This document shows positions 7,241 to 31,428 of a stretch of DNA of 64,000 nucleotides, one piece after another. The DNA comes from Lophium mytilinum. Taxonomy: Eukaryota. The position numbers and the translations under genes were made by a program. Location of the stretch: the NCBI GenBank assembly GCA_010093605.1, contig MU004191.1:914816-978815 (forward strand), read 5' to 3'. Position 1 is the first letter of the stretch, and every line of letters begins with the position of its first letter. Below the pieces are notes generated by a model. It made no database searches. It was not told the origin of the DNA and worked only from the letters and a program-made list of their open reading frames with translations.

Positions 7241-8506
7241 GCGGCAGCTATGCCCGAGTGGCTTGATATCGCACGAGAGGATTAGGATGACTACACCGAG
7301 GCCTCGTCCGGCAGCTGGCTGACGCCGCTGGTGTCACAGGAGGCGGACCTTACATGCTGGACACATCGGTGAGACGCATCGCCACCAGGGACAGCGGGAG
7401 AGGGCAGCAGTGGAAAAGCACGCGTGCACGACGCGTCGAGCACCTTGGATATATATATTTATGTGCGACCACAAGCGGCGCCAAATGATAGCAAATGCGA
7501 AATCGGTGCATTTGCGCCCGTGGACCCCGTCCAAGCTCGAGTTGCAGAGCGCCTCCGTGCTGTGTTGGGTGTTGGTGTGAAGGGGCAATGATTGGTGGAC
7601 ACACGCCGTAGCAAATGCACGCCGAGCAACACCTCGATTTATTCTACCTGTAGCATTTCAGCACACTGCCTGTTTCATCAACCCCCTGCGGCCAACCACG
7701 ACGCCCATACTGCTGCATTATGGCCGCCGCACGTGAGGCGGTAGGGTCGGCAGCCTCGCTGGAAGGAGACCTGCGGGAAGGGCTGAACCCCGACGCGTTT
7801 CAGGAGCTCTTTTGGACGACTTGACACCGCGCTTGTAGCAGAAACGTGCTGGCCTCAATGCGCTGCTATCTCGACCTCCAGTGGTCGCGTCCTTGCAGGC
7901 AATCGTGCGACTTGCTCCCTTCTCCTGCACTCCATGTACTCTTTCCTTAAGTCCTCACTATTGGCAGCTGCTGTTCAACGCAGTTTCGCCTTTCTTGAAC
8001 CCTCTTCTTTCGTTTGGTGTTGAGCTTTGAGCTACCGTTCTCTCCCCTCTCTTCTATTCTCCGGCCTTCAGCGTGTGCTTGAAGCTTGACTGCAGCTGTG
8101 CCGCCCATAGGTCTGCTCTCCCGCGCCGGTCACTTCTTCGAGGCCGCTCTGAGTGCCGGTAGTTGCTCGAGACCAACCGATTGACCTCCAGCATGCTCAA
8201 CTAGCTGCGAATGACATTGGACGGGCTCCAGTCATTCTTCTTCCGTGAAGCTGTTCCTTACATCCTCGCTGTCACTACCGGGTACAACCGCCCCTAGTCT
8301 GTCAAAACAACCGCATGGCCAGCAGTCCCAGTCAATCATTCGCTGTTAGCTCTACCCAGTCCGTCGACATCAACAATACGTCTCTAGGCTGGCTACCCGA
8401 GTACTCGATATAAGAACCTTGTTTCACGCTCACACTTCTGATTCTTGAGCTTCTTCTCCCGGATCATAAATCAGGATAGCCATTTGGAGCATCGCGCCTC
8501 ACAAAA

Positions 8507-9878
8507 ATGCCTCTTCCCTATTTCCACAGGCCCTCTCCGAGGCTGGACGATTCGCCCGCGCCTTCATCGATATCTCGATTCTCCGTTATGCACAACAACG
8601 TTCGCTCGATGCTCAATGGTAGCTCTGTTTACTCGGATTCGCCTCTCCCATCAAACAACAACACACCCAAGCTCCCATTGCTAGGCTTTCTCCGCCGGCC
8701 ACATAGCCCTCCTCCTCTGCCTCTCGCGAACTCTGAGTTTCGACGCGACTCCACCTACTCACAGTCTCCTCTACGGCCCCAGCACACCGCAGGCTCATAC
8801 ATACGTGCAATTAGCTCGGATAATGTCGCTAGAGGACCTGTCGCGCCGCAAATGGTGCATACACGGAACGAGTCGCATAGCTCATATGACAGTATCGACC
8901 CCGAGACGGAGCATATCGCAGAGATCGTGAACCACAACCGGCGACGGAGGAGGCGTAGGAGGAGGACGAGGGCGACACCAGAGCGTAACGCGTGGATACG
9001 CAAGCGTGCCGAGCGTGGTGTCTGCTTCTCATACGTGAAGAGTCCTGCGGCGCGAACGAAGTGTACGGCATTGTTGATATCGGGACTATTCCTCATCGTG
9101 GTGTTGACTACATGTGAGTATTTCATTATTTTCGCGTCGGAATACCTGGACCAGTCAGCTGACTTGCAATGCGCAGACCTCTCCGTCGCTCTCACACGAC
9201 CACACCTCGGCCAGGAAGTCCATGTCCTGTTCATCATGGTTATTCTCTGCACCACAATTTTCTTCTGCCATTCGCTCATTCGACTTTGCATGCTTGCGCT
9301 GCGCCCAGAATCAGACCTTCCACACATCCCCAGCATGACCGGTCCCGACGGGTTCAAGCCAATCCGGCCAATCCGCGTGCATCTAGCCCGGGACGAAGAG
9401 ATCGGAGTTAGCCATGAAGCAGCCGAGGTCGAGGCGGAGCCAGAGAAGGAAAAGGTCCAGATGCCGCCGCCTGCGTACGGGCTGTGGAGATCCAGCGTGG
9501 TAAGTTTCCTCGTCTTCTACAAAAAGACCCTCCAGACTAACCCTTCCCCAGCGCGTCGACCCCAATCTCCTCCACTGGCAGCGCGCCGACGCCGCCGAAG
9601 CCAGCGGCGCTCTCCCACCAACCCGTCCGCCTTCTGTCTTCCCAGGCTTCTCGTCCCACCCAACCTCCCGCTCCGGCTCTCTCTCCAACATCCACCAGCA
9701 GGCGCCTCCGCCAGCGGAGCATGCTGATGAGCCCGCGAGGCGGGATCCGCGGCCGCCATCTTACGTCTCCGACGACGGCGTCACCTACGTCGTTGCTGCG
9801 GTCCCGCGGAGCGTGGCGCCGAGCGTGTCGGGGATGAGCGATGTGCATCCGGCGTGGCGGCCGGGGTTTGCGGTGTAG
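8507..9878 (+). CDS. Uncharacterised fungal membrane protein with two hydrophobic segments
   Basis: Long ORF from 8507; Arg-rich patch; hydrophobic ALLISGLFLIVVLTT and VHVLFIMVILCTTIFFCHSLIRL; PPPAYGLWRSSV and RPPSYVSDDGV motifs; introns near 9114-9177 and from 9500; stop TAG 9876-9878. Confidence 0.75.
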
Positions 9879-10979: not shown

Positions 10980-11863
10980 ATGGCGACGCCAACACCAGCG
11001 ACTTCAGCGATGTCAGCGACACCAGCGACACCAGCGACAACAAAAGATGAGTTCGTGATGCCAGTTCTTGTTCCGTGCTCCCACCCAACACCATGGCCTC
11101 CAGAGTAAGTCGAATTCCAGCCTTGAAATGGTTCGTAAATGTTAGCTGATCTAACATCTTTAGCAGCTGTTTCGACGACATAGTCTCCGTTATCGTTGGC
11201 GAAGAGAAGAAGGCCTTTCGCGTCCACAAAGGTGTTCTCACCTACCATTCCGCTTTCTTTGCCGCAGCCTTAGATGGCAAATTCAAAGAAGGCGTGACTC
11301 AGATCGTAGAACTGCCCGAGGACGAAGTTTCCGTCTTTCAAGTAGTGTACTGTTGGCTTTACACTGGACGGCTCTACAACCCACCAGAACACCCACCATC
11401 TTCATCACCTTCAACCGCCGCTGAACACTTCGCGGGTGCAGAGCAGGTTCCGCTTTTCGAGACGCTTATCTGCAAGGTCTTCGTCTTTGCAGACATGAAG
11501 ATCATTCCAGAGCTCAAGAACAAAGCAGTCGACGTACTACATCTAGTTACCTGTACCAACTGGACTTTTCTGAATCACCAAGCCCACTACATCTACAGTA
11601 ACACAATAGATGGTTCCCCCCTAAGAAAAGTCATCACGGACTTTGCAGCGAAGAGTCTCGGTTGCGAGAGCTTCATAAAATTCAGCAGAGGCGGTGCCCT
11701 CTACCCGACTGCCTTCTGCCTTGATGTAATAGCGGCGATACATAGCCAAGGTGGAAAGTGGGATCATATTGGTCGAGAGGGCTGGGCAAAAATTGACCGA
11801 TGCCTTTACCATGATCACTCAGGACCTGGTGGGAAGCTGAGAAGATCACATACGACTGCTTGA
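10980..11863 (+). CDS. BTB/POZ-domain protein, array copy A
   Basis: ATG 10980; phase-2 intron 11105-11163 (tandem TAGCAG acceptor); DIVSVIVGEEKKAFRVHKGVLTYHSAFFAAALDGKFKEG..VELPEDEVSVFQVVYCWLYTG is a fungal BTB signature. Confidence 0.9.
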
Positions 11864-12652
11864 ACGCCAGAGATACTCCTAAAGTCTCCGTGTCTGGCAG
11901 TTTCTTCCTACGATGCTTCAGGGATACTACGCATGACACGAGACTATTGACAATGACGGATGTGGGTTGGTGCAACTCTCTCCTTTCCATAGTCTGGAGG
12001 CTGTCCGAGGGCGATATATACAAGCTTGAAATAAAGAGTGAAGCATATCGGGCGGGGCGTTCTCTGCTTTCATTATCGATGACAAATTAAACTTTGCCAG
12101 GTAAAAGGCATTGATCGATGAATATCAGGGATGTCTAGGTTTGAGTTGTCTATATGCAACTCTATAGAACTAGAGAGAGTCCCTTCCACCTCACTCCTAT
12201 CGGAGAGAGCTGGCCTACATAGTAAGCGTGTTTCTCATCGTGCCGTGATATGTTCCACTCGACGGCTCTCTTGGCCAACCTTTTTCCCGGTAATCCCAGA
12301 TAGCAGCTCCGAGACGATAGCTTGCGACGAAATTCTTAGGTAGTGACTTTATTTCATCTCATTCTCCCAAGGACTGTCTGGTGGAAGCCCTTGGTCTTGA
12401 CGCCTTCGACTGCTAAATAAAATGCTTGCCCCTAATACTTTTAGCTGGAGTTTCAAAAGCTGTCCGTAGCCGCTGCCCTGGACCACCATAAGCGATAGAA
12501 TTCTAAGGTGATTGGCTAAGTATGCGAGCACGTCCCCACCCTGCATGGTGGCTTCTGAACGTCGTTCAGCCTCTCCATTTCCTCTCCGTTTTGTCCTTCC
12601 TTCTATCCGCACTCTCGCCTTGAGTAATGAGACCGAGTCTCTATCCGGCCCG

Positions 12653-13463
12653 ATGGCGACATCTCCCCCAGAGAAACCGGCGTATGTGATGCCCCATTTG
12701 AAAAGCTGCGATCATCCAACCCCGTCAGCACCGATGTTAGTATAGACCCGACCGTCACACTAGCGGTATGATTGGCTGACTCGACCTCAGTTCCACCTGG
12801 GGCAGTGTCATATCTGTCATCGTCGGCGAAGAAAAGAAGGTCTACCAGGTACACAAAGGCCTGCTACTCTACCACTCGTCCTACTTCGTTGGCGCCCTCG
12901 AAGGAGGATTTAAAGAAAGCGAAACCGAAGTTGTGGAGCTCTTTACAGATGAAGTGGTCGTATTCGATGCCGTGTACTGCTGGCTCTACAAAGGGCACTT
13001 ATTCGATTCGCCATCCGCCGGGAAACCTACAGATGTGTCACTCCTATACGACCTGCTCTGCAAGATCTTTGTCTTCGGGGACATGAGAGGCATCCCCGCC
13101 CTTAAGAATGCAGCAATCGACCTACTGCACTCGTCGATTTGTATAAAATGGAAATTCCCCAAGACTCAGGTTCGCTTCATCTACGAGAATACGATGGAAG
13201 GGTCCCTCTTGAGGAAGTTTATTGTGGATATGGCAGTCTTGATTGCTTCTTGTGAGACATTTCTATCGTTTGATAAAGATGGCACCAATTTTACGACTGA
13301 GTTTCTTATGGATGTTATTAAGGCGTTGAATGATCAGGGTGGAAAGTGGCTTGTGATTGGACGGGATGCCTTTGCGGTGATTGACAGGTGCCAGTATCAT
13401 GATCATTCTGGTCCTGGAGGGAAGCTGAGAAATGTAGGGACAAGTGGAGAGGATTCGGGCTGA
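12653..13463 (+). CDS. BTB/POZ-domain protein, array copy B
   Basis: ATG 12653; phase-2 intron 12736-12790; VISVIVGEEKKVYQVHKGLLLYHSSYFVGALEGGFKE...WLYKG. Confidence 0.9.
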
Positions 13464-14028
13464 TTCAATCACTTCTGGGATCTGGGGTGCTTGCATAGGC
13501 TTCTAAATCCTTCAGGTTCTAAGCTTCTCCTCTTCATAGCAGGCAAGGTGACTAATAAATCCTCAGGGATGCATGAAGAAAACTATGTGAAGGGCATACT
13601 CCACTGTGTGTGTTGAGAATCCAAAGGAGGTCATAGAGTGACGTGGTCTATAAAGGTATTTTAACGATGTTCAATATTGCTGAGAGGTACCGCATCTTGC
13701 CAGGCTATTCAACTGCTTGGAGCACCCTGAAATGACTTCAGCTCGAAGTCGAACTGTCGACATATTTTGAACGCTGCATGTGCTGCTTCGAGCTCTTCTT
13801 AGACTCCGAGCTAGACGAAGTCAGTGGATTTGAACATTCGTAAACTGTTCTGGCCACCCCAGAGAGAATTATCTAGTGAGTACAAGCTCATACTGTCGCT
13901 TCACCTCAGTTCAACCACGTGCGCTTACCTAATCCTACTCCACCTGCTCAAACTTAACATCATCGTCTCGCTCATCCTCATCGTCTCACCACGTTCCTTC
14001 ACCGGCTTAGGTGGTCTACACCGCCACC

Positions 14029-14909
14029 ATGGCTACGTCTTCGGTGCCTCCTTCTCCAGCGACGGTGTTCGTGATGCCACCACTGGTGCCATGTCCTCAC
14101 TCTACTGCGCTCCCTCCGATGTATGTACATATTGAGTACCTCAGCCTCATGTCAATAAAGCGCATGAATTGTGCTAATGTTACATCAGAACAGCCTACGA
14201 TGAGCTAGTCTCCGTCATTGTTGGACAACAGAAGAAAGTCTTCCGGATTCACAAGGGAGTGCTCTCTTACCACTCATCTTACTTTGCCGCTGCCTTGGAA
14301 GGACAATTCAAAGAAGGAAACACTGGAGTGGTGGAGCTCGAAGACGACGAAGTGGAAGTGTTTCACGCCTTCTATTGCTGGATATACACGAGACGCCTCC
14401 GGGACCCCCTATCTTCACCGCTGCACAAAGATGCTCTTCCTCAGAACTCGGCGGAAACTACACTATCGGACCTACTGCTCTGTAAAATCTACATCTTCGG
14501 AGACATGCGGGGGATTCCTGGACTTCAAAATAATGCTCTCGACGCACTCCACAAGAACATCTTGCTTTCCTGGAGGACACTTAGTGCGTCCATTGTGAAT
14601 TACGTCTACAGTAATACTGTCGAAAAGTCCCAGCTGCGTTGCTTCATCGTTCAACTTAACATCTCAGGGTATCACGATCTCTGCGAATTCGTCGAAAAAC
14701 GCCTCAAAAAGGATCGCAACAACTACCCAATGGACTTTGTCATCGACATATTACAGATTATTTCCACCAAGGACAAGAGCGGGGCATGGCCGAGAGTGAA
14801 GCACCTGCAAGAGACCTGGGCAAAGCTGGACAGATGTGAATTTCACGATCACTCTGGACCTGGAGGGGCTCTGAGGAAGGCGCCAGGAAACGGGCCGACC
14901 TCTGCATAG
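14029..14909 (+). CDS. BTB/POZ-domain protein, array copy C
   Basis: ATG 14029 in ccgccaccATGg context; phase-2 intron 14121-14188; LVSVIVGQQKKVFRIHKGVLSYHSSYFAAALEGQFKEG...WIYT. Confidence 0.9.
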
Positions 14910-15297
14910 ACAGATCAAGACTCGGAATCAAGACTGCCTTAGCAAAGGAACAGTCAAAATAATCAAAAGATGAAAGGTCTCCAGCCTGGCCTTGAAGTCA
15001 AGCTATCATGTTACCCTTATGCTCGTTTAAGACAATCGTTTAAGACCTTCCTTCATGGTGATGTTGTGAGATGTGACATTCGTGATTCAACTTAGAACCT
15101 TCGACTTTTCACTTCACCCAACAGGGCATTGACAGAGAGATGTAAGTACAGGGCTATGACATCGTGTCCATTCACATCACTTGACTGCTTACCTAATCGT
15201 CGCGTCGCGTTCTTTGCGACTTAACAACCTTCTCGCGCCCAACCTCACTCACAGCCAACAAATTCCTTTGCAAGTTGGAGCGGCCAACGCCAACACC

Positions 15298-16205
15298 ATG
15301 GCCACACCTGTGGTACCTGCTACGCCTCTGGTACCTACCACTCCGGCGTCGCCAGCGACGAAACCAACATTTGTTATGCCAGACCTCAAGCCATGCTCGC
15401 ATCCCATTCAAGGTCCCTGCATGTAAGTACCTCACTTTCGCCAACCGGCGGGCACCTCGTTCAGGAACAGTGCGCTGAACTTTTGCTGACGACTTGAATG
15501 TATAGCGATGCCTTCAACCACGAGATCTTGATCAAGGTCGGCAAGGAGGGCAAGGAAGTCAGAATCTACGAGGGGTTACTCACCTATCATTCCTCCTACT
15601 TCGCCGCCGCACTGAGCGGCTCATTCATTGAAGGCCAAACCAAAGTAATTGAGCTTAAGGAAGATGAGGTGGAAGTTTTCTCCGCGTTTCACTGCTGGAT
15701 CTACACTGGACGCCTGCACCCGTCTCGAGAATCACCACTCAGCAGAGATGCATACAAAGCCCCTACAAGTTCGGAAAGGAATGACCTGTATCTTCTCCTC
15801 GCCAAGATCTTTGTTTTCGGAGACATGAGAGGTATACCAGCGCTGAAGAACGAGGCAATTGATATACTCCACCAACTCTACACATGCACCTGGACGGATT
15901 TTCACTTGTCTGCTGTCAAATACATCTACAAGAACACCACGGCTACGTCTCAGCTACGCCAGTTTGTCGCTCATGCCAATGTCATAGGCCTTCGTGATCT
16001 CAAAAGCTTCCATGAGACAACAAGCACAGCCTGGCCGATCGCGTACGTCTTTGATGTACTACAACTCGTTGCGATGAAGGATAGGAGCGGGGCATGGCCA
16101 AAACTAACTGGCAATCGAATGCACTGGGCGAAACTTGATAGATGTCAGTTCCACGACCATTCTGGACCGGGAGGAGCGCTTAGGAAAACCCCAGCAATCG
16201 GATGA
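15298..16205 (+). CDS. BTB/POZ-domain protein, array copy D
   Basis: ATG 15298; phase-2 intron 15423-15505; ILIKVGKEGKEVRIYEGLLTYHSSYFAAALSGSFIEG...WIYTG. Confidence 0.9.
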
Positions 16206-17158
16206 ACTTCTACTTGAGCGTGTGCAGCAGTCTGTGCACATCCGTCCTCCACAACTCGGAGTTCCCCAACGTGTCTTCAACAATCAGGACAGGACGTAAG
16301 GCTTGATACACATGAATTTGGGCTTGGTTCCGAAGGTTTTTGGACTGCCGATTGCGCGACCGAGGCAACTCTGGATGACTGGACATGAGCTTAGGCCCAC
16401 TATCAAACTATCCTAATACCATTATACTTCTACCAGACCCTTTTTGATCGTGACGTTATGAGGATTGACATCCGTGCGTTGAGGTGCTCTGAGAAGGCGT
16501 TGATAGCTTCAGAGGAAGCTTAAGTGTAGTAGTCCTCGTTTCTTGCGCGCTAAGTTTGTTCTGTCGACACTTAGCTATGGAGTTTGAGTTTAGAGCCTCT
16601 AGCAGGAACGTAGGAGTAAAATGCAGGAGTCTTTGCGTCGTAGCTACTCCAGCACCAAACGAATACTATCTGTAGTTGGACTCACCACTACTCCGATGCT
16701 GCTAAAAGTGCTATCTCTAAGGCGGATTGCAGAGAGCATTGATCGATCGAATGTTTCAATTATAGCCCAAGACTCACCTTACCGTGGTTTGCGTGTGATC
16801 CGGATCTCTATTACTATTGACAAAGTGATAGCGGTGGTGAAGAGCGCAAAGACGATGGAGAGGTACTTACGACTCGCCCATTGTGATCACAATCTAATAA
16901 GAACACAGGCCAGCAGCTTGGTAGCCCTTCATGCTGTGATCGTTGGGATTAGCACGTGACTGAATCTGGGAGCATTTCACTTCTTCAGCTCACGTTAGGA
17001 TTAACTCTCGGCCCGCTCGCTATCAATCTGCCGCTTCAAACATCCGGCTCGGGCTTTCCACGGCAGAGCATCCTATTCACCTCCTTCAACTTCGCATACT
17101 GCTGCTCAAGCCCGACCACCAGCTGCGAAGACCCGGTCTACCGCTGGCGCGCGTCGCG

Positions 17159-18002
17159 ATGGCAGACGACGATTTCAAGATGCCGACTGACCTCAAGGAG
17201 TGTCCGCACAAGACTGAGTTCCCCCCGATGTAAGTCCTATGCAGCCCTTACACCGACGGCGAGTGGAGTTCGCTAACAAAGCCATTCATATAGGACTGCG
17301 TGGGACCACTATGTCTCAGTCAAGGTTGGCAAAGGCGAACAAAAGAAGGAGTTCAATGTCTACAGGGGACTTCTGACTTACTACTCGTCTTACTTTGCGG
17401 CTGCTCTCGACGGAAACTTCAAGGAGGGTGTCACTCAGGTCGTAGAGCTCAAAGAAGATGATCCAAAAGTCTTCGAGGCCTTCCGGAGTTGGATGTATAC
17501 CAGACGTCTATTGGACCAAGTCCCGAGCTTCGATGTGCTCAAATCAGCGGCACACGACCGGTTTCTATGCAATGTTTTCATTTTCGGTGACATGAGAGGC
17601 ATACCAGGCCTCAAGAATGAAGCTATCGATCAGCTTCACAGGTCAACGGCCGAAACCTGGATGGTGCCTTCAAACGACATCAAATACATCTATACGCACA
17701 CACCTGTGCCGTCCTCACTTCGAGACTTTGTTGTTAGTGTGCATGCTCTTACGAAGAATTCTGTTGAAGAGGCGGAATCCGGGAAACATGGTTTCACGGT
17801 AGATTTTTTGTTTGACCTGTTGAAGATGGTAAATACACAGCACGGAATAAAGAACATCGGAAGATTGCCATGGGCAAGATTGGACCGATGCCAATGGCAC
17901 GATCACTCGGGCCCGGGAGGCAAGCTACGGGCGATTTCTGCCAATGGTTCAAACAGCTTGACGGAACGAATACTTACTCCTCTCGCGCAGCTTCCATTGT
18001 AG
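17159..18002 (+). CDS. BTB/POZ-domain protein, array copy E
   Basis: ATG 17159; phase-2 intron 17230-17293; YVSVKVGKGEQKKEFNVYRGLLTYYSSYFAAALDGNFKEG...WMYT. Confidence 0.9.
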
Positions 18003-18712
18003 AGGTCGCGATGCCTTGCCATTAGACATGGCGGTCTGGGGACTGGACAAGGCAGGACAGGCTCTCGACTACGACGCCTACTCTAAAGTCACGGCAACCG
18101 AAAACGAACCAAGATCGTTGACACTTTGGCTGCAAAATGGTACTTGAAGCGAGATAGCGACTCTTTAATCTGCATCCGAGTCCAAAGGTGTCTAGGAGAC
18201 GGGAATATCGGCTGAATCTCTGAATTAGTGGCGCCCACAAACACTATAGGTAGCGTCGACAAACATAGAAAACACAAATGCAACCTAAGCTCACATCGTC
18301 GTCAGCACTGGCTGGTGATCATTACGTGATACAGAGGATGAGTTCAAAGGCCACGAGTCGTCTGACGATATCTGGTTATGTAACCATTTTTCGGCTGCTA
18401 AACCAATCATTGCCTACCGCCATCCCCTATGTTCATCCTCTCCATTTGAGACTTTCTCTTACAAAGGGTGCGGCCGAATGCATATTCCGATTCTAATCGC
18501 TGTAACGGCCGTGCACGGCAGAATCTCCACTAATAGGAACCACCTTTCTTCACCGCCTCCCCCTTATTTTAATCCGTGAGAATATAAATATTTACCTAAA
18601 TTTTAACTACTATAGCTTACTACTATGCTAGAGGCCGCTCTAAGGGGGCTAATAACACCCCTATTACTATAAAGGCTACTATTATTATAATATATCTCTT
18701 CTTTTAGGTTTC

Positions 18713-18916
18713 TGTCACGGGCAGTGAGGTACGGAGGTGTGTCGAGCGAGAAGTAGGATTGTATTACAAGACGTGCTGCAAGGAGCCGGAGTATGAGGCT
18801 GCTCGCGATTCTATCTAGAGACACGCCGGTGGCGGAACAACGATGTTCCTAGCGAGCACGTGACTATCAGGCACGTGCTAGGTTCGTAGCTAGGAAAGAG
18901 GCCTAGATCCGTCACA
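18713..18916. mobile_element. Solo LTR, 204 bp, essentially unRIPped
   Basis: TG...CA ends; imperfect terminal inverted repeat tgtcacgg / ccgtcaca; 5-bp TSD gtttc at 18708-18712 and 18917-18921; GC-balanced inside an AT-rich host. Confidence 0.9.
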
Positions 18917-19029: not shown

Positions 19030-19231
19030 TATAACGGATCTAGCTCTATATATATTATATACTCTTAGCTATATTATATAAGCCTATATACTAGCGCGGT
19101 TTTATACCTCTAGCCTATATTTAGCCTCCACCGCGTAGAACCTCTACCTTTATATAACTTTATCTTTATAAATACACCTTATTTCTAGCTTAATACTATA
19201 CTCTATACCTTACCTTTTATAGTCTATAATA
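19030..19231 (+). repeat. 5' LTR of gypsy element 1
   Basis: Direct repeat of 26699-26900 differing by transitions. Confidence 0.95.
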
Positions 19232-22200
19232 CTATAAAGTTACTCTACCTAGCTACTATTCTACTAAGTCCTTAAACTATAATCTACTACTAGTAAACTA
19301 TAATACTCTATAATTACCCCGCGCGGCTATTATAGCTAATAATTCTAACCCCCTTAATATAACTAGTATATAGAAGCTTTAAGATCTTCTCTTATAGTAT
19401 ACTATTCTTATATTCTTAGACTTCTAGGCCTTAACTTAGGACTTCTAGAATACTAATACCGCTAAGAAATTCTAGATAATTACTAGAAACTTGCAGCGCG
19501 CACGCAGCTATAATAATAATATCTAAGATAACCTTACTAAAGGCCTTACTAAAGGCGACGCTATTCTTAAAGATAATAAGCTTTAGAAACACCCTAATTA
19601 ATCTAATTCTAGTAGCTACGTCTACTACTCTAAAATGCCCGGCGCCTTTAAGACTTCTATTCTTAAAGTAAATAAGCTTATTAATTACTCCGCTATTAAT
19701 AAGTAAGATACTAATAAAGCTTCTATTATATATAAAGTTCTAGATGCTAAAGCCTTTATAGACTTTATTACTAAAAATAAGATAATAGCCTTTAAATTAA
19801 CCCGTTTATATAAAGCTAAAATCTATTAACTATATAACTACCTAGAGCGTAATAAGGCCTCTATAGAGGCTTAGGCTAAGCTTAATAAGTAAGCTTATAA
19901 TATAATTAAGTAATAAGATAATTACCTCTAGGCCGCAAAAGATAATATTAAGTAGCTAGAAAAGACTATTACTAATATAAAATTTAAATACTAGTCTAAC
20001 CTTTCTAACCTCTATAATAACTATAATAATGCTATTTAAAATAAAGATAATACTATCTATACTAGAAACTCTAAGAATAATATTATATATAAATATATAG
20101 CTAATATAGTAGTATTTACTATATAGATAGACACTATTAATACTATAGTAGTAAAGTATATTACTAAGCTTAAGACTTATAGTAAAGCTTTAGCTAAGTA
20201 TATTACTAAGCTAGAAGCCTATATTAAAAATATTAAGAAAGCTCTTACCGCTACTAAAGTCTATATTAATAGCCTCTAGAATACTACTATCTACAGCCCT
20301 ATAGCCCGCGCTAATAACCCTCCCTCTAAAATTACTACGCAACTTACTACTACTATAAGCTAGTAATATAAGCTTATAGCCTATATTATAGCTAAAGAAG
20401 GCGCTAAGCTAGAATATTACTCTTCTCTACCTAGCTAATATTACTTACGCGGCTATAATTACTAGTAATATAAACCCTTACTACTCTACCGCCCTAATAA
20501 GCCCCTCTATAGTTAATAGGACTATATACGCCCCACCGGGGGCAGCGGTAGACCCCTATCTAATTCTAGTAATAGTAATAATAATAATAAGAACTTCTAT
20601 AACTATAATTTAATTTACGCCCTATAATTATATATACTACCTATACCTTTTATAAAACCTAATAGCGCCCTACTACCCCTATATAATATTAACTGCGGAA
20701 TACGCGCTAATTAAAATAAGGATAAAACTATACTATACCCCTCTAAGTATAATAGAGATAAAGCTAAGTATATTACCTAGTATTACTAGGTTCTTAGTAA
20801 GTTTACTTATAGTAGCTATCTCTACTAATATAATAAAGGATTCCGCCTCTACTTTCTAGGTATATATCTTACTAGTATACCTCTTAGTAACTATATAGCG
20901 TAGATAATAGGCTATTAGCCCTTTTATACTCTTAATAATACTATTAAGCGCCTTAATATTAAGAACTTACTATATAACCCTAAAGCTATTATCTTCTAGT
21001 AACTTAACTAACTAATATAGAGTAATAATAACCTTAATATATTCTATATAAAGTACTAAGCGCTTATAGTATAACTACTAAATTAAGAATACTATTAGAA
21101 TATTACCGTGCTTAAGGTAAAGATCTGCCTAGGTATTACTAAGCCTGCAGGTGTTCTAGAAAAACATTATAAGAAGGGATATAAAGTTATTAATATATAT
21201 TATAACTAGCTTTTTAATTAGGCTATAGTAGACTATACCTAGCCACGCTAATAATATAGTAACTAGCCCGGATAGTATAACCCCTAGACTAATATTAATA
21301 GCTATTACGGAGGATACTATAGTAATAAGCCCTAGAACCCTTCTAACTAGACCCCGATAGATTAGTTTTAGGCTACTTAAAACTAGGTTACTTAGAATAG
21401 TTAGAACTAAAGCTACTAGAATAACTATAGCTAAGAATAAACCTAGAATATAATAAACGCGTCTAGCTAGAATTACTAGATATCTATACTATAGACATGT
21501 AAAGTTATAAACTTTCCTATTAATATTTCTACTAACTAGCAGCGCCTAGCCCTAGGCTGTCTTATAGATAACTAAAAGTATTAACTTATAAGTAAGAATT
21601 ACTACTTCTACTACTAACTTATTAGTTATATATCTACTAACTAGTAGTACCTTATAGAGCGCTCTACGCTCGCCCTATATAGTATTAGCATGTATTCTAA
21701 TAATATTATAACCCTAGCCCCGTCTATATACGCTCTATCTATATACGCGCCTCTATTTATATATACTCTATCTATATATATAGCCTCTACTATATTTACT
21801 CTAGCTTCTATTAAAGTAGGTATTAATACTTCTATCTTATCTAGAGGCGCGGGAGGACTATTTATAGAATACGGCTAATCTTAATACTAGAGCTACTTAG
21901 GAAATGCTTAGTTCTAGATTATAGTTATAATCTAGGGCGTATTATTACTAAAGCAGTCTAATACTATAAAAATAAGAAATCTATAAAGTTATAGTTAAAA
22001 AGGTTAGTTATTTTAGCTGCCTCTCTTAGTAATAATATTTAAGTAGGTTAAACTAATAAAAAGACCCTCTATAGCTTTCTAGTTCTAGCTAAAGTCTAGC
22101 GTTTCTATAAAGAATAACTACTAGATATAATTAAAGAATACCTTTATAGTAATACTAGAGTAACTAATAAATTTATAGATACTACTTATGCGCACTAAAT

Positions 22201-25200
22201 AAACTTTTCTATCTACCCCTTACTAAAATTATAAATACTTAAATTAGCTAATAGCTCTACTATTACTAAAAAGATTACTTATAAAGCTCTTATCTCTATT
22301 ACTATTTAAGGCTACTAGAGCTATAAATAGGCTTATATTACTAACCTTAGTAATTATAATATTATTCTAGGCCTCCGCTAGTTCTAATATTATAACCCAG
22401 CTATTAACTAGGTTATAGGCAAGATTAGCTTTATAAAAGATAAATATAATAGAATCTTCTATATATATTAATATTACTATATAGATAATACTAATAGTAC
22501 TATTACTTATACTAAAGGATTAGCTCTACTAGACTTTATATATAACTATAAATATATACTATCTAACTCTATAAACTCCGCGTAGAGAATAAGTATTATA
22601 GCTTACCTTACTATATACCGCATAGCCGCTATTAAAGAAGACTAGCTTAATAACTTACCTTAATACGTTACTACTAACCTTACTAATACTAGTAAGAACT
22701 TCCTACTCTATTCTAACTACCTCTAGGTTATAGCTATATAAATAAGTAATATACCTATCTACCTCTATAAACTAGCTATGCGCGATATTAAGAAGTTTAT
22801 AGAAGTTAAGTAATACTATACTAAGAAAGAGATATTTATAAAGCTTTTCTCTAGCCTATATAAATATATCTATATATTTAACTAAGTTAATACTAATATA
22901 CTCCCTCTATATAGACTAGGTATTAACTATAAGATTAACTAGGTTAATAGTATTAACCTTAGTAAGCTATTTAAAGCCCGTCTATATTCTATATCTACTA
23001 ATAAGCTCTAAGTTATTAAGAAATAGCTTAATAATAATCTAGCTAAGGGCTATATTAGATAATCGCAATTATAAGTCTCTTTACCTATTCTTCTTATACG
23101 CAAGCTAGGGGGCGGTATTTAGTTCTACATTAACTATAGAGCTATTAACGCTCTTACTATTAAAACTTATTATTCTATACCCCTTATATAAGAGACACTT
23201 TACTATCTTAGAAAAGCTAAGTAGTTTACTAAGCTTAATATTATCGCCGCTTTTAATAAAGTCTATATAGCCCTAGGCTATAAATATAAAATAGCTTTTA
23301 TAACCTGCTATAGTAAATACAAGTCCCTTATTATACCCTTTAGTATTATAGAAGGGCTAGAAACCTTCTAGTCCTTTATTAATTAAATACTATATAACTT
23401 CCTTAATATATTCTATATAGCGTACCTTAATAATATTCTTATCTATACTAGAGGCTCTAAAGCTAACTATAAAGCTTACGTTATAGCTATTCTTAAATAA
23501 CTAGAGGTAGTAGGCTTATATATTAACTTATCTAAGTGCGCGTTTAATTAAAAAGAAGTTACTTACTTAGAACTAATAATTTTAACTAACAGAATCCGCA
23601 TAGATCTAGAGAAAGTTACCGCCATTCTAGAATAGAATACTTTAACCTGTATTAAGGACGTCTAAGCCTTTATTAGACTATCTAATTTCTACTAGTAATT
23701 TATCTACGGGTTTTTATATATTATTAAACCTCTTACTAATATAATAAAGCTCTAAGAGAAATAAAAGAAAGCCTACTTCTTATAGATAGAGGCCTATAAA
23801 AAGGCCTTCCGCGCGCTTAAGAAAGTATTTATAGAAGCACCCGTTCTTATGCACTTCTAATATAGTAAGAAGGTCTTTCTTAAAATAGACGCTTCTAACT
23901 ATATAATAGCCGGCGTTATATTCTAAATTAGACCTAATAGCCTTCTATACCTAGTTGCCTTTTTCTCCTTTAAGATATTACTAGCTAAGTGCAATTATAA
24001 GATCTATAATAAGGAACTTCTTATAGTAGTTAAGGCCTTTAAAGAATAGAGACCTAAGCTTATAAGCGCTAACTCTAAAGATCTAACTAACGTTCTTATA
24101 AATTACTATAATCTTAAATAGTTTATAACTACTAAGAAGCTTAATTAATATTAAGTCTATTAGGCTAAATTTCTTACTAGGTTTAACTTTAAGATTATAT
24201 ACCGCCCTAGTATACTAGAGGGTAAACCTAATAGCCTTACGCAGTATTTATAAGACCTACCTTATAGACCTAATAATCTATAGAATTAATTTTAACATTA
24301 AACTATACTTAAATCTTATAACCTTAGACTAGAAGTTATACTAAATAGTAAATTACCCTTACTCTTACTAAATAACGCTAAGTTAAGTAAGCCTAGCTTT
24401 CTTAGGCCGTTCTACGCACTTTACCTATATACTAAGCTACTTAAGCCTCTTCTAATAAACTTACTATAATCCTCTCTTAAAATATATTCTCTTTTTCTCT
24501 TACCTCTTTAACTCGCCCCTGCCAGGCTCCGCAGCTATAACTATGCTAGTAATAATAGTAATAGTAATAGAAGCACTAATAAGAACTTTACAGCGCTACC
24601 TAGTAATACTAATAAGATTTTTACAGCTCTATTAGCTAATAAGGATATTATAGCCGCTAATAAGGTTATTATAGTATAGCTAGATTAAGGTAATAACAGC
24701 GCTAATAGTAATATTAACTATAATAATAATAACCTATAATACCTTATTAATAAAGCCTATATACGCCCGCCCTACTTTAAATCTCTATATAATTCTACCC
24801 TATATAAGCTTATTAATCTTATTTAAAGCAGCGCCTATTCTATTCTAAAGCCCTTTATAACCTTATTAGTAACCTTAATATTAATAGTTTTAAAGTATAA
24901 GATAACTAATTATACTATTATAATTACCTATACGTGCCGGCCTATAATTAGCTCTATACTAAGCTGCTTAGCCTATTTTATAATATATCTATTACTAGCT
25001 ATTCTAGTAAATATAGATTCTATAAGCTACTTTAATATTACTATTTCTAGCCTAACTTCTATAAAGATATTAAGCGCTATACAGGCGCCTATTATAGCTG
25101 CCGCTAAGTAAAAGCCTTTTAAGATAAGTAGTAAGGACTACTCTATAGCCTTAATATACTAGATAAGTAATAGACTAAAATTACTATAGATTTTATTATA

Positions 25201-26698
25201 GACCTTTCTCTCTATATAAGAAATAGATAGATATATATACTTATTCTTATTATAGTTAATAGACTATCTAAAGAACGCTACTATATTTCTATAATAGGGG
25301 ATATAGTTAAGAATATTACTAATACCTTTATCTGCGAAATATTTTAATTACATAGCCTACCTAAGATTATTATTAGTAACCGCGGTGTATAATTTATATC
25401 TATAGTATAGCGCCGCCTATATAAACGCCTTGGCATTAAATCTAAGTTTTCTACTACTTTCTATTCTAAAACTAATAGCTAGACTAAGAACGCTAACTCT
25501 ATTATAAAGGCCTACCTGCGCTAGTTTATCTTATACTAATAGAATAACTAGGTTAATTATCTCCCTCTTAGTAAATTTATAGTTAATAACTATAAATTAG
25601 CCTTAATAGGTTTTACGCCCTTCTTTACTACTTGCGGTTTCCACCTATAGTTAGGTATTAAACTAGCTATACTAGTTACTAGTTACGCTGCTACACATAA
25701 TAAATAACTACTTACTAATTAATACGCTAACTAAATAAAGGATATACTTAAGGAATATTATAACACTATTACCTAGGCTATAGTAGTATAAGCCTACTTT
25801 ACTAATTAATATTACTAACCGCTACTACGTCTTAAGGTAGATAACCTAGTCTAGCTTAACGCGCGTAATATTAAGACCTAACACTCTAATTATTTACTTA
25901 ACTATAAGAATCTTAGTCTATTCTATATTACTAAAGTTATTAATTAGAGTTACACCTTCTAGCTTAACTTTACTAGAATATTACTTAAGAGATATTGCAT
26001 GCATAACGTCTTCTATTCTTATCTACTTTATCTATTTAAGCCCTATTCTATACTAGAATAGAACCTACCTCCGCCTCTACCCGTATAAGTTATTAACCCT
26101 TATAGTATAACTAATAATAAGTAAGATTACATTAATATATAGCTAATTAACTTTATTATAGATAGCTACTAGCTATAACGGGGCCGCTATAGCTATAAAC
26201 TATAATACCGCGCCTAGTATAAAGGTTATACTAAGCTATAGATATAGTAGAACTAGATAAACTTTAGTAAATATAGAGCTAATAAGCTTATTAGTAAATT
26301 CTACTACTATTACCCTAACGCCGACGGCCCTTATCTAGATTTTAGGCCTAACCCTAATTAGTAATAGGTTCTTAATAAGCGCGCACTTATAATCTACAAC
26401 GCGCGTATTTATTAACTCTAATTATATACCTTGCGCAGTAATATTATAATATTATTTATAACCCTAAGACCCGGATTCTCCGCCGCATCTAGCTAGCCGA
26501 GCTATCTTAATAGGAACGCCTACCTTTATAATACTATAAGCACGCCTCTTTCTTATATAGTTCTTATTTAATTACTTATAACTATATTTCCTTAGTATTT
26601 TATTTTATTTTTCTAAGTTAATAGCCTTACTATATAGCCTTTTCTTTATATATAGCCTTTTCTTTCTATAGCCTTTCTTCTTTATTTAGGGGGGGTAG

Positions 26699-26900
26699 TA
26701 TAATAGATCTAGCTCTATATATATTACATGCTCTTAGCTATATTATATAAGCCCGTGCGCTAGCGCAGTTTTATACCTCTAGCCTGTATTTAGCCTCCGC
26801 CGCGTAGAATCTCTACCTCTATACAACTTTATCTTTATAAATACACTCTATTCCTAGCTTAATACTATACTTTATACCTTGCCTCTTATAGTCTATAACA
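26699..26900 (+). repeat. 3' LTR of gypsy element 1
   Basis: Direct repeat of 19030-19231; ends aaca, followed by TSD ctaga. Confidence 0.95.
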
Positions 26901-28717
26901 CTAGAGTCCCTTTTACCTAAATCTAGCCGGCCTAGAAGGGCTTAATATATTAAGAATAGCTTAAATTTCTTAAGAGAAATTAGATAGAATATACTATATT
27001 AGAAGAACTATTCTTTTAAAAAAGTAGCTACTCTAGCACTCTATATAGCTAGCGTTAAAGTAGCTAGATTAATAATTAAAAGAATTATTTATTAGTACTA
27101 TAATTCTCTTTACTAGGTACTAATTATATATAGAATTAGGCCTAGAAAGCCGGCGCTTAATATAGCGTAGAAAGATACTAGATTTAATTACTACACCTAG
27201 CTATAAAATCTTATTAAAAGAACCTAAGAAAAAGTTATTATTATCTATTTAGATAAATTACTAAAGTAATTTAGACCGGGCTAGGCTAGTAAAGGTAAAG
27301 CTAGAGTCTCTAAGCTAATAGAGAGAGATACTAATAAGTATATAATAGCCTAAAAGAGTACTAAGTTCTTTTTTTCTTTTTAGAGTACTATATACTTAGA
27401 TAATTATATTTTAAGGCTATATATTATATAGAAGCTAGAGTCTTAAAAGTAGAAGAATACTCTTAAGAAGAAGCTTATTAAAGATAATAAGAATATAAAG
27501 AAAAGGGCTAAAAGGTACTAAAGAAATACTAAGATTTAGGGGATAATAGAGCATAACTATATAAAAAAGGTAAATAATAAAATTAGAGAAGATAATAAGC
27601 GCCTTAAATAATAAGAAATTTAAAAGGGATAGTAGTATAAGTATAGGTCTAATTAGAAGTATAAGTATAAGATTTTTACCTAAAAAAAAGAAAAGAGGAT
27701 AGATATAGCTTAGTATACTAATAATATTTTAAAGCTATTACTTTATTCTTACTATTTTACTATATAAGAAGTAAACCTAGATAAAGAGGTTTAGCTAATT
27801 AAAAATAATATCTCTCTTTACTATTCTACTTAAAGAAAACTATTATACCTCTTCTTATAGATTAAATTTATAGACTACCTAGCTTTCTCCCCTAATTTAT
27901 ACCTAATTAAGTAAGTTTTTAGAAGAATAAACTATTCTATAAAGCTCTATAACTACTAGAGCGCTAGTAAGTAAGTAAAAGATAAAGCTAGGTAGTTTCT
28001 ACTTAATCTATAGAGGAAGAATAAATAGATAAATAAATATATTATTAGCTAAGTAAAAAATAATACCTTTTTAGACCTTATATATAAGTGTAAATTAGTA
28101 GATAGAAATAATAACTTTATAGAATAATAGCGCACTTTATTTTATAGATTATTAATAGAAATTAAATAAGTTATAGTAATTTAAATTTATATATAGTACT
28201 TTAGTATTCTACCCCCTATACTTATATAACTAGAATATATATTTAGCCGCACCCTTTATATATATAGCTATAGCTAAAGCTTAGACCTCTATACTTTAAT
28301 TAATAATATAAAGGTATATAGCTATTTTATCTTTTATAATATTTCTCTTAATATATTAATAGGGCTAGTACTATATATATAACTATAAATTATTTAGTAG
28401 TATTATAAAACTATCCCTTACCCTAGTATATTAGAGTGTGCCAGTCCCTTATATATTATCGCTCTTAATAGTCTTCTATATTTTTATGTAGATTCGTGGA
28501 TTGTATACACAAGGACTGAGGGAATCGGTGCCATCTTACATCGGGGCAATCTCGGGCGGAGAAAGATGATCTTATCAGATGCCCCGCGCCAAGCCCAAGC
28601 TCCATCGCTGTTGACTGAAATACACCTCCACCGTCACTTCAAGCAAGCAATTACCTACACCTCACCAACCTCACCACATAAACTCTCTCAAACCTCCCAC
28701 ACTCTCCACAGCTCACC

Positions 28718-29610
28718 ATGGAGCAAACACGCGCCCTCAACGCGCTGGAACCCTTCCTCGCCCTCTCCAAATCCGCCAACTCGCCCCGCGCGGCCGCCGA
28801 TCTGGTCTCGCAAGCTACCTCCGCCCCAAACACCTACGTCTTCGCGGAGCTCCTCCAGACGCCAAACATGCAAGCGCTGAAGCAATCGCCCGAATACGCC
28901 TCTCACCTCACACTCCTGGAGATATTCGCATGGGGCACGTTGGCCGACTACAAGGGTAAGGCAGCCACTTCCCCCCCTCCCAACCCCCCTTCCCATGAAA
29001 CCCTACAAGAACATATACTAACACCTCTCTCCTAGCAAACGCATCACTACCCCAGCTAAACGCCGCCCAACACCAAAAACTCCTCCTCCTCTCCCTCCTC
29101 CCCCTCGCCCGCTCCCACACCACCCTAACCTACGCCCACCTCACAACCGCCCTCTCCCTCCCCTCCCCCCGCGCCCTCGAAGAACTCATCACCACCGCCA
29201 TCTACGCCTCCCTCCTCACCGCCACCCTCGACCCCGCCCACGGCCTCGTCAACGTCACCTCCATCGCACCGTTACGGGACCTCGCACCCGGCGCCATCCC
29301 CTCCCTCGCCGCGACCCTCGCGGCCTGGAGCGCGCGGTGCGGCGGCGCGCTCGACGAACTAGACGCGCAGATCGCGGGGGTGCGGAAAGCGGCGGTGCGG
29401 CGAGAGAAGGAGCGGCGGAAGCGGGAGCGGGGGATGGAGACGGCGATGGGGTTGCTGGAGGAGAAGAGCGCGGGGGCGGCGAAGAGGGGGGAGGAGGGGG
29501 GGCAGGGGCAGGGGGAGGCGATGGAGATTGATCAGGAGGATATTGTGGGGCGGTTTGCAAGGGGCGTGAAGAAGGGGGGGTTGGCGGGGTTGGGGGGTCG
29601 AAGGTTGTGA
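28718..29610 (+). CDS. CSN7: COP9 signalosome subunit 7 (PCI domain; CsnG/AcoB-like)
   Basis: MEQTRALNALEPFLALSKSANSPRAAADLVSQATSAPNTYVFAELLQTPN...LLEIFAWGTLADY; intron 28956-29035; QKLLLLSLL, RALEELITTAIYASLL..TLD, VTSIAPLRDL. Confidence 0.9.
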
Positions 29611-30627: not shown

Positions 30628-31428
30628 TCAAGCGGATGTCGCGGTGCCCATAGATGGTACCGGGGGTCTGCTAACCGTGGGCGCGGCAGACGTCGACGAC
30701 GGCTGTATTTCCATCTCGCCTCCCTCACCCCTTTCCTGCTCCTTCAAAAACTGCTCCCACTCGGGATCCATGACGGCGCTCACACCTTGCTCCCGCAGCG
30801 CCGCGGCATGCCGTAGCCGCTCGTTGAGCGCGAAGCCCACGGAATCCGCCACCTCGTCCTCGTCGCTCTCCTCGTCCTCGCGGTCGGCCATGTCTGCGTC
30901 CGCAGCCTCGTCGACGTCCATCCCCGAGCTCGCATTCGTAACGCCATTTTGCTGCGGCTGCCGCACCTCCTCAATCTCAACCTCAATCCGCGTCTTCACG
31001 TTGATGCCCTTGCTGCCCCCTTGCCGCGCCCGCTTGTCCACCCACTCGCCAATCTCCATGCCGGTTGTGTCGTGCACTTTCACGCCCTCGTCGCGCTCGT
31101 AGCGCTCGCGGGCCCACAGGGTGCCCTCCCAGCGGCAGAAGCCCTGGATCTCGTGCTCGGTGAGGCCGAGGTCGTCGAAGGCGCGGAAGAGGCGGGCGTG
31201 GTGCGCGAAGCGGCCGAGGCGCTTGCGGTGCGGCGGGTGCGAGTAGTTGAGGCCCGGGTAGCGGGCCTCGATGGTGTCGAGCGAGCCGTAGAAGGTGGCC
31301 GTCTCGATGCGCACCTCGCCGACCAGGTTCTTGGACAGGTGCGCGCTGAAGTTGGCCGGGTCTTCGGGCCGCGGGTTCGGGAAGAGCTGGTTGTAGACGA
31401 GCAACGTTATGGGCTGTTTGCGGTGCAT
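30628..31428 (-). CDS. Uncharacterised fungal protein, intronless
   Basis: MHRKQPITLLVYNQLFPNPRPEDPANFSAHL...IEARYPGLNYSHPPHRKRL...FCRWEGTLWARERYERDEG; high GC3; acidic C-terminal half. Confidence 0.8.
   Translation of the reverse strand: MHRKQPITLLVYNQLFPNPRPEDPANFSAHLSKNLVGEVRIETATFYGSLDTIEARYPGLNYSHPPHRKRLGRFAHHARLFRAFDDLGLTEHEIQGFCRWEGTLWARERYERDEGVKVHDTTGMEIGEWVDKRARQGGSKGINVKTRIEVEIEEVRQPQQNGVTNASSGMDVDEAADADMADREDEESDEDEVADSVGFALNERLRHAAALREQGVSAVMDPEWEQFLKEQERGEGGEMEIQPSSTSAAPTVSRPPVPSMGTATSA

What the first reader, a model, noticed from the sequence alone, without database searches (positions are those of the whole stretch)
10980..18002. Head-to-tail array of five intact, highly diverged BTB/POZ genes beside a RIP island
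Seen: five same-strand paralogues spaced about 1.3-1.9 kb apart, each with one phase-2 intron at the same position just before the BTB core, all with open frames and no obvious similarity between spacers. Established: BTB proteins act as Cul3 E3-ligase adaptors, and RIP destroys near-identical duplicates in these fungi. Inference: this is an old or fast-diverging array kept by selection. It could be a diversified panel of substrate receptors, for example for non-self or virus recognition or regulated proteolysis. I recognise no characterised family for it.
Basis: partly seen in the sequence, partly recalled or inferred. Interest (0 to 1): 0.8.

Follow-up and report, generated by a model that had tools for sequence, protein, structure and literature searches.

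The report
Old tandem fungal BTB gene array
A wood-dwelling fungus carries five neighbouring, anciently duplicated genes for small proteins shaped like the docking half of a ubiquitin-ligase adaptor, probably closed by a zinc clasp; such arrays are common in moulds, their targets are unknown, and the neighbouring transposon block is a later, unrelated arrival.

Summary
Observation confirmed: five intact same-strand BTB genes, each with one phase-2 intron at the same aligned codon, 44-53% protein identity, unrelated spacers, saturated synonymous sites. Introns of g2-g4 are spliced in one probable RNA run; g5 is overlapped by a spliced non-coding antisense RNA. The array is old: the sister genus Mytilinidion has counterparts of four copies, three with consecutive accessions, and monophyly of the five is rejected. 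The RIP island is a younger LTR-element nest, has left no mark on the genes, and is probably coincidental. The model is a SPOP-like BTB+3-box/BACK fold without a MATH or Kelch domain; all five keep the Cul3-contact phi-x-E motif. An N-terminal Cys plus a C-terminal C-x2-H-x-H probably form a zinc clasp (inferred). Cul3 binding was not tested. The genome holds at least eight more same-strand BTB clusters, the family has thousands of clusters, and this scan has noted similar arrays in other fungi. A defence role is unsupported here but not excluded. Ordinary kind, uncharacterised subfamily.

The parts
10980..11863 (+). g1, BTB gene; exons 10980-11104 and 11164-11863 (or acceptor 3 nt later), 274/273 aa
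   Evidence: no splice joint seen in the one RNA-like run; Mytilinidion counterpart 55%
12653..13463 (+). g2, BTB gene; exons 12653-12735 and 12791-13463, 251 aa; the slow-evolving copy
   Evidence: intron spliced in run X3; Mytilinidion orthologue 86%, support 100/100
14029..14909 (+). g3, BTB gene; exons 14029-14120 and 14189-14909, 270 aa
   Evidence: intron spliced in run X3; partial Mytilinidion counterpart 60%, orthology unresolved between g3 and g4
15298..16205 (+). g4, BTB gene; exons 15298-15422 and 15506-16205, 274 aa; the copy that was folded
   Evidence: intron spliced in run X3; models
17159..18002 (+). g5, BTB gene; exons 17159-17229 and 17294-18002, 259 aa (the public 208-aa model stops short of the C-terminal motif)
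   Evidence: Mytilinidion orthologue 65%, collinear through the C-terminal motif, support 100/99; no sense splice joint seen
16300..18600 (-). Spliced antisense RNA over g5; introns 17817-17977, 17309-17381, 16934-16993, 16561-16685; ends approximate; longest ATG frame 55 aa
   Evidence: four CT..AC joints in run X3, absent from DNA run X1; GTAAGT/GTGAG donors and AG acceptors on the minus strand; no Rfam match
18451..18712 (.). End of a repeated element; start of the repeat block
   Evidence: 77-83% matches at two other loci that lie in RIP-type DNA
18713..18916 (.). Solo LTR (TG...CA ends, GTTTC target-site duplication), inserted in the repeat block; not part of the array
   Evidence: sequence; 20 matches in the genome, best 94-96%, many in pairs about 8 kb apart
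19030..26903 (.). RIP-mutated LTR element bounded by 205-nt direct repeats; core of the AT-rich island
   Evidence: direct repeat 19030-19234 / 26699-26903, 89% identical; CRI 1.6-1.75

Best explanation
An ancient local expansion, by tandem duplication before the Lophium/Mytilinidion split, of a small Dothideomycete BTB-3-box/BACK gene. Each product most likely docks on the Cul3 N-terminal repeat through the F-x-E motif in helix alpha-3.1 and the following helical pair (inferred from motif and fold), probably as a dimer, and recruits or modulates a partner through the variable C-terminal helices, since it has no MATH or Kelch domain (inferred). A Cys from exon 1 and the C-terminal C-x2-H-x-H probably bind one zinc and clasp the two ends of the chain (inferred). 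The copies have been kept by purifying selection and have drifted apart at different rates (shown); slow birth-and-death of Cul3 adaptors, as at other BTB clusters of this genome. The RIP island is a later transposon nest that neither made nor mutated the array.
For: Shared intron and open frames. pN well below pS. Counterparts in Mytilinidion with consecutive accessions in the same relative order; AU test rejects a clade of the five, p = 1.3e-7. Fold matches: SPOP Z 9.9 (170 aligned, rmsd 4.3), KLHL22 9.1, vaccinia A55 9.1, KEAP1 BTB+3-box 9.0; Foldseek and HMM hits are SPOP, KBTBD2, KLHL3. phi-x-E in 8 of 8 array proteins of the two genera and 76 of 103 wider relatives; PMC3616122 (passages) places this motif in the Cul3 pocket. 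A BTB protein binds Cul3 in Neurospora (PMC2996332, passages). Cys33, Cys255, His258, His260 are kept in 43/45, 84/84, 83/84, 82/84 ungapped rows; both ends are confidently ordered (pLDDT 92 and 95); N-terminal and C-terminal fourth Cys are mostly alternative (38 N-only, 12 C-only, 5 both, 8 neither). 29 of 64 BTB-like hits in the genome lie in 11 clusters.
Against: No direct evidence of Cul3 binding, zinc binding or any substrate. The closest outside relatives (same C-terminal motif, named ones all Pleosporales) lack phi-x-E in 34 of 34 by my strict pattern, so the subfamily's conserved tail may serve a Cul3-independent job. Three of four cross-genus pairs are only 55-65% identical against 96% for Cul3, faster than a housekeeping reading predicts. 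Gene order in Mytilinidion is inferred from accession numbers, not seen in DNA. Sense splicing was seen for 3 of 5 genes only, in one run.
Confidence: 0.6

Rival explanations
1. A diversified surveillance panel: each copy recognises a different foreign or damaged protein (mycovirus, transposon, bacterial or competitor effector) through the variable BACK-like helices and sends it to Cul3, and the array evolves under host-parasite pressure.
For: Identity among the five falls from 59% (BTB core) and 73% (C-terminal motif) to 35% and 27% in residues 171-245; the same pattern holds in the g1 and g5 cross-genus pairs. In a Parastagonospora nodorum relative, two haplotypes differ by 21 residues packed into about 45 positions of this same region and are identical elsewhere (131 and 15 contigs). 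The family is very large (10,352 clusters at E <= 0.001).
Against: All five copies are intact and at least four lineages survived a genus split, g2 at 86%: slow turnover. No polymorphism data for this species (one DNA sample). The P. nodorum blocks could be introgression or gene conversion, that gene lacks phi-x-E, and its paralogue is one sequence on 155 contigs. The Podospora non-self transcriptome paper has no mention of BTB in its main text (PMC4835503, term search; supplements not read). Variable peripheral helices are also what relaxed constraint gives.
Confidence: 0.2
2. Cul3-independent scaffolds or substrate-less decoys: the proteins dimerise with each other or with other BTB proteins and act through the conserved zinc clasp and SGPGG tail, tuning Cul3 occupancy or a chromatin or signalling partner rather than selecting substrates.
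For: No recognised substrate-binding domain. The most conserved part is the C-terminal motif, not the Cul3 loop. The sister clade keeps the motif and has lost phi-x-E and, in the two tested, the Pfam BTB match. Model residues 34-45 align with the N-terminal segment of dimeric BTB domains.
Against: phi-x-E is invariant in all eight array proteins of two genera despite about 50% overall divergence, which argues for a kept Cul3 contact.
Confidence: 0.15
3. RIP made the array: recent duplicates were forced apart by RIP or by RIP leakage from the neighbouring island, and the copies are largely neutral.
For: Physical adjacency to a RIP block; RIP is clearly active in this genome.
Against: Gene CRI -0.39 to -0.73, like ordinary neighbours, with no gradient towards the island. 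Copies predate the genus split, while the island's LTRs are 89-96% identical to their partners. 0 of 25 other BTB loci have RIP-type DNA within 1.5 kb. Purifying selection is clear.
Confidence: 0.05

Closest known systems
SPOP (and plant BPM) BTB-3-box/BACK region; KLHL/KBTBD and KEAP1 BTB-3-box; vaccinia A55 BTB-BACK
   Same: Best sequence and fold matches; phi-x-E in a short alpha-3.1 helix; helical pair after the BTB core.
   Different: No MATH, Kelch or other substrate domain; about 260 aa; a long loop after alpha-4; N-terminal Cys and C-terminal C-x2-H-x-H-S-G-P-G-G not covered by any solved match (matches span residues 34-238); about 17-18% identity.
Neurospora crassa BTB1 (NCU04838)-Cul3 complex
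   Same: Shows that a filamentous-ascomycete BTB protein binds Cul3 and is stabilised by the COP9 signalosome (PMC2996332, passages).
   Different: Not compared by sequence here; no reason to think it is this subfamily; no array described in the passages read.
Lineage-specific BTB/POZ expansions in fungi
   Same: BTB/POZ, F-box and RING expansions are reported for Agaricomycetes (PMC10282164 and PMC8893723, passages); a BTB orthogroup is listed as expanded in psychrophilic Dothideomycetes (PMC11412873, passage).
   Different: Those passages give family counts only: no tandem anatomy, subfamily definition, metal site or function.
NPR1 BTB domain with a zinc finger
   Same: BTB plus BACK-like helices among the fold matches (Z 8.9 and 8.5); that NPR1 carries a Cys/His zinc site is recalled, not from a call.
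   Different: NPR1's site lies inside its BTB domain (recalled) and the protein has ankyrin repeats; here the candidate ligands come from the two ends of the chain.

Membership tests
BTB/POZ superfamily (PF00651) | Profile match above the curated cut-off | tested here: met
   5 of 5, 25.9-42 bits against 20.5
BTB/POZ superfamily (PF00651) | BTB core fold | tested here: met
   AlphaFold2 model pLDDT 84.6 and 89.5; top structural matches are BTB proteins
Cul3 adaptors (BTB-3-box/BACK) | phi-x-E motif in the alpha3/beta4 loop | tested here: met
   FKE, FKE, FKE, FIE, FKE; aligned to the SPOP loop; short helix 83-87 in the model; definition from PMC3616122
Cul3 adaptors (BTB-3-box/BACK) | 3-box helical pair after the BTB core | tested here: met
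   Helices 176-185 and 191-203; alignment to KEAP1 BTB+3-box over model 34-200 and SPOP over 35-238; rmsd about 4, so geometry is approximate
Cul3 adaptors (BTB-3-box/BACK) | Physical binding to Cul3 | not testable with these tools
A Cul3 gene is present in the genome
Cul3 adaptors (BTB-3-box/BACK) | BTB dimerisation | tested here: inconclusive
   Residues 34-45 align with the N-terminal segment of dimeric BTB domains; no dimer was modelled
SPOP / MATH-BTB and BTB-Kelch families | MATH or Kelch substrate domain | tested here: not met
   Only BTB passes in Pfam for the five second exons; exon 1 is 24-42 codons; not filed as a member
Fungal non-self recognition genes (het / NLR type) | HET, NACHT/NB-ARC or repeat sensor domains in or beside the genes | tested here: not met
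   Pfam of the five and of seven neighbouring ORFs: BTB, LisH, WD40, PCI, DRMBL, FAD oxidase or none
Fungal non-self recognition genes (het / NLR type) | Balancing or diversifying selection among strains | not testable with these tools
   One DNA sample of this species listed; dS saturated between paralogues
RIP-mutated duplicates | TpA excess and CpA/TpG depletion in the copies | tested here: not met
   CRI -0.39 to -0.73 in the five coding sequences against 1.6-1.75 in the island
Cys2His2-type zinc site (proposed clasp) | Four ligands in tetrahedral geometry around a metal | tested here: inconclusive
   Conservation, alternation of the fourth Cys and high pLDDT fit; the folding tool gives no coordinates, so distances were not measured

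The most novel reading that the evidence does not exclude
The thousands of small ascomycete BTB proteins ending in C-x2-H-x-H are one unrecognised class of single-module Cul3 receptors in which a zinc clasp (fourth Cys supplied by either end of the chain) presents a swappable BACK-like specificity block, and arrays such as this one are an intracellular, ubiquitin-based surveillance repertoire of filamentous fungi, with alleles exchanged as blocks and individual copies muted by transposon-driven antisense RNA.
Probability: 0.15. Interest if true: 0.7.

Novelty: new member of a known kind. Interest (0 to 1): 0.3.

Why it matters
As it stands this is one more old, lineage-specific BTB cluster. 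Its value is as a clean test case: five intact paralogues with known cross-genus counterparts, a kept Cul3 motif, a sister clade that has lost the motif, and a candidate zinc clasp shared by a very large fungal family for which my searches found no functional study. If the copies proved to select different substrates under diversifying selection, filamentous fungi would have a ubiquitin-based recognition repertoire like the F-box and MATH-BTB expansions of nematodes and plants (recalled).

Tried and rejected
Complex prediction of g4 with Cul3 and zinc: service not available, no result either way. Metagenome scan for related loci with alignment A4: 104 pattern matches, none confirmed, so no DNA-level synteny outside this genome. 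Look-up of neighbouring genes for a divergence baseline and synteny: 1 of 4 window sequences was in the collection, with no accession shown; the only baseline is Cul3. No RNA holder is on record as RNA; run X3 is a guessed RNA run, accepted as spliced RNA because it skips GT..AG introns in neighbouring genes. Missing sense joints for g1 and g5 are not evidence of silence. Contig depth was not used to rank genes. Loose ends near 18459-18491 do not map elsewhere in the window and are explained by the repeat there. Antisense RNA as a coding gene: rejected, longest ATG frame 55 aa with assumed ends; no Rfam family. Bacterial promoter scan: not applicable to a fungus, chance level. ESM Atlas: only unnamed ascomycete BTB clusters. 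Positive-selection test among the five: not possible, dS undefined in 8 of 10 pairs. The Pfam methyltransferase hit in g3 (E 0.032, below cut-off): chance. Nine paper searches found no study of this subfamily or array; the library lacks most subscription journals and I read no supplements, where gene-family tables could list these genes.
Full report
Observation. The five genes are there. Gene models with one GT-AG intron each give open frames of 274, 251, 270, 274 and 259 aa; all introns are phase 2 and interrupt the same alignment column, just before the first BTB strand. All five second exons pass Pfam BTB. Protein identity is 44-53%, DNA identity 50-58%, the longest shared exact run 10-15 nt, and the spacers are unrelated. 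A search with g4 returned an identical public protein labelled Lophium mytilinum; the five public models carry consecutive accessions in gene order. The public g5 model is cut short at 208 aa; the Mytilinidion orthologue is collinear with my longer model through the C-terminal motif.

Selection and age. pN is 0.31-0.40 against pS 0.73-0.87, dS is undefined in 8 of 10 pairs, and identity by codon position is 0.59/0.66/0.36: purifying selection on old duplicates, with no power to test positive selection. Mytilinidion resinicola has four relatives on one scaffold length: three with consecutive accessions that match g1 (55%), g2 (86%) and g3 or g4 (60%/57%, partial) in the same relative order, and a g5 orthologue (65%) 46-48 accessions away. 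Order there is inferred from accession numbers only. Trees pair g2 and g5 with their counterparts at 100/100 and 100/99 and g1 at 94/89; an AU test rejects a clade of the five Lophium genes, p = 1.3e-7. So the duplications predate the genus split, and one end of the array has probably been rearranged in one lineage. Cul3 is 96% identical between the genera over 248 aa, the only baseline I have; three of the four BTB pairs have diverged much more.

RIP island. The coding sequences have composite RIP indices of -0.39 to -0.73, like ordinary neighbours, with no gradient towards the island (1.6-1.75). The island starts with a repeat end at about 18451, then a solo LTR at 18713-18916 with a GTTTC target-site duplication and 94-96% identical copies elsewhere, then a 7.9-kb element with 89% identical 205-nt direct repeats. 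These are far younger than the array. 31 of 64 kb of the window are RIP-like, and 0 of 25 other BTB loci have such DNA within 1.5 kb. At 50-58% identity the copies are far below what RIP recognises (roughly 80% over several hundred bases; recalled). How the first duplicates escaped RIP is not answered. RIP in Mytilinidiales is the subject of PMC12910237 (abstract start and passages), whose main text has no mention of BTB.

Expression. One run guessed to be RNA (X3) skips GT..AG introns in neighbouring genes and skips exactly the predicted introns of g2, g3 and g4, each in one shallow contig; the DNA run shows none of these joints. No sense joint was seen for g1 (a hole in cover across the intron) or g5; this is not evidence of silence. 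Four CT..AC joints show a spliced minus-strand RNA over g5, with good splice signals and no ATG frame over 55 aa. Cover ends before 18609, in the repeat end, so a transposon-driven start is possible but not shown. Antisense transcripts are common in fungi (PMC8893723, passages).

Protein anatomy. AlphaFold2 models of g4 reach pLDDT 84.6 (27 rows) and 89.5 (86 rows): BTB core 46-170 with a long loop after alpha-4, then a helical pair 176-203 and further helices. Best matches are SPOP (Z 9.9, 170 aligned, rmsd 4.3), KLHL22, vaccinia A55, KEAP1 BTB+3-box and NPR1, in line with Foldseek and an HMM search of solved chains. There is no MATH or Kelch domain. All five, and three Mytilinidion proteins tested, carry F-x-E at the place of the phi-x-E motif, which in KLHL3 sits in a short alpha-3.1 helix, fills a Cul3 pocket and is needed for binding (PMC3616122, passages). 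Of 174 family sequences, 29 lacked my anchor pattern; of the rest the motif was in 8 of 8 array proteins, 76 of 103 wider relatives and 0 of 34 other proteins with the same SGPG tail (the strict pattern misses at least one shifted FKE). Named members of that tail group are Pleosporales and form the sister clade. Identity among the five is 55% in the exon-1 motif, 59% in the BTB front half, 19% in the loop, 49% in alpha-5/6, 35% in 171-203, 27% in 204-245 and 73% in the C-terminal motif.

Candidate zinc clasp. C-x-[WFY]-H-x-H occurs near the C-terminus of 137 of 173 hits. In the 86-row alignment Cys33, Cys255, His258 and His260 are kept in 43/45, 84/84, 83/84 and 82/84 ungapped rows. Of 174 sequences, 111 were set aside (37 without the motif, 8 long, 66 with an N-terminus too short to judge); among the other 63, the fourth Cys is N-terminal only in 38, C-terminal only in 12, both in 5, neither in 8 (Fisher p = 1.3e-4, inflated because the rows are related). 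The two ends have pLDDT 92 and 95 with little regular structure. This fits one Cys2His2 site closing the chain; geometry was not measured.

Context. A hand-made union of two own-genome searches (lower bounds) gives 64 BTB-like hits, 29 of them in 11 clusters with gaps up to 5 kb. One cluster is two domains in a single frame and one is on opposite strands, leaving eight other same-strand clusters; this one is the largest found. Only one other locus scores clearly closer than the rest, and it lacks the SGPG tail. The profile finds 10,352 clusters at E <= 0.001 and 3,458 at 1e-10; the Atlas lists only unnamed ascomycete BTB clusters. Earlier notes of this scan describe other BTB arrays in this genome and old arrays of 4 to 17 copies in other fungi; they are unchecked AI notes and count as context only. 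None matched this protein by sequence.

Evidence for the defence reading. The best hint comes from elsewhere: in P. nodorum a relative has two haplotypes (131 and 15 contigs) that differ at 21 residues packed into about 45 positions from the end of alpha-6 through the BACK-like helices and are identical elsewhere; a rarer form adds an N-terminal block. Against it: introgression or conversion gives the same picture, that gene lacks phi-x-E, its paralogue is a single sequence on 155 contigs, all five copies here are intact, and the Podospora non-self study does not mention BTB in its main text (PMC4835503, term search only).

Literature. Nine searches found no study of this subfamily. I saw passages of PMC3616122, PMC2996332, PMC10282164 (only the first 300,000 characters are held), PMC8893723, PMC11412873 and PMC12910237, and a term search of PMC4835503; all others only as listings. 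No supplements were read, and most subscription journals are not in the library.

Verdict. Real, intact, old and at least partly transcribed. It works most probably like the BTB-3-box half of a Cul3 adaptor (0.6); a surveillance panel (0.2), a Cul3-independent scaffold or decoy (0.15) and a RIP product (0.05) are the rivals. It is a BTB superfamily member, not a SPOP or Kelch family member. New member of a known kind; interest 0.3.

Noticed in passing
window 16300-18600, minus strand: Four-intron non-coding antisense RNA covering g5; its cover ends in the repeat end beside a solo LTR, so it may be transposon-driven.
   Followed up: partly
proteins P0295, P0296, P0299, P0020 (P. nodorum relative): Block-wise allelic dimorphism: 21 differences in about 45 residues of the 3-box/BACK-like region, otherwise identical; a second block at the N-terminus in a rarer form.
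   Followed up: partly
Pleosporales-type relatives (P0006-P0028 and others): The sister clade keeps the Cys/His motif and SGPGG tail but has replaced the Cul3-contact loop; the two tested no longer match Pfam BTB. A natural negative control for Cul3 binding.
   Followed up: partly
window 28999-29610, + strand: PCI-domain ORF, which I recall as resembling COP9 signalosome subunit 7, about 11 kb from the array across the transposon block; the signalosome regulates cullins, but the proximity is probably chance.
   Followed up: no
window 18713-18916: Solo LTR with intact target-site duplication and higher GC than the surrounding block, nested in an older repeat end; family of about 20 copies, many paired about 8 kb apart.
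   Followed up: partly
G000 C16:1175407-1179643, C4:112866-120512, C4:1886965-1890949, C1:989552-992117, C4:99623-101888: Other same-strand BTB clusters of 2-4 genes; several end in C-x2-H-x-H followed by a downstream Cys, the alternative form of the clasp.
   Followed up: partly
P0167 (public model of g5): Public annotation ends at 208 aa and loses the conserved C-terminal motif; probably a mis-predicted intron.
   Followed up: yes
P0302, P0154, P0162, P0187: Some relatives match the profile in two or three stretches and look like tandem or fused repeats of the whole module in one chain.
   Followed up: no
window 42000-64000: A second, larger RIP-type AT-rich block (CRI 1.4-1.7) fills the right third of the window.
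   Followed up: no
window 8480-9878 and 30628-31428: Two neighbouring ORFs without any Pfam match; the first is spliced in run X3.
   Followed up: no
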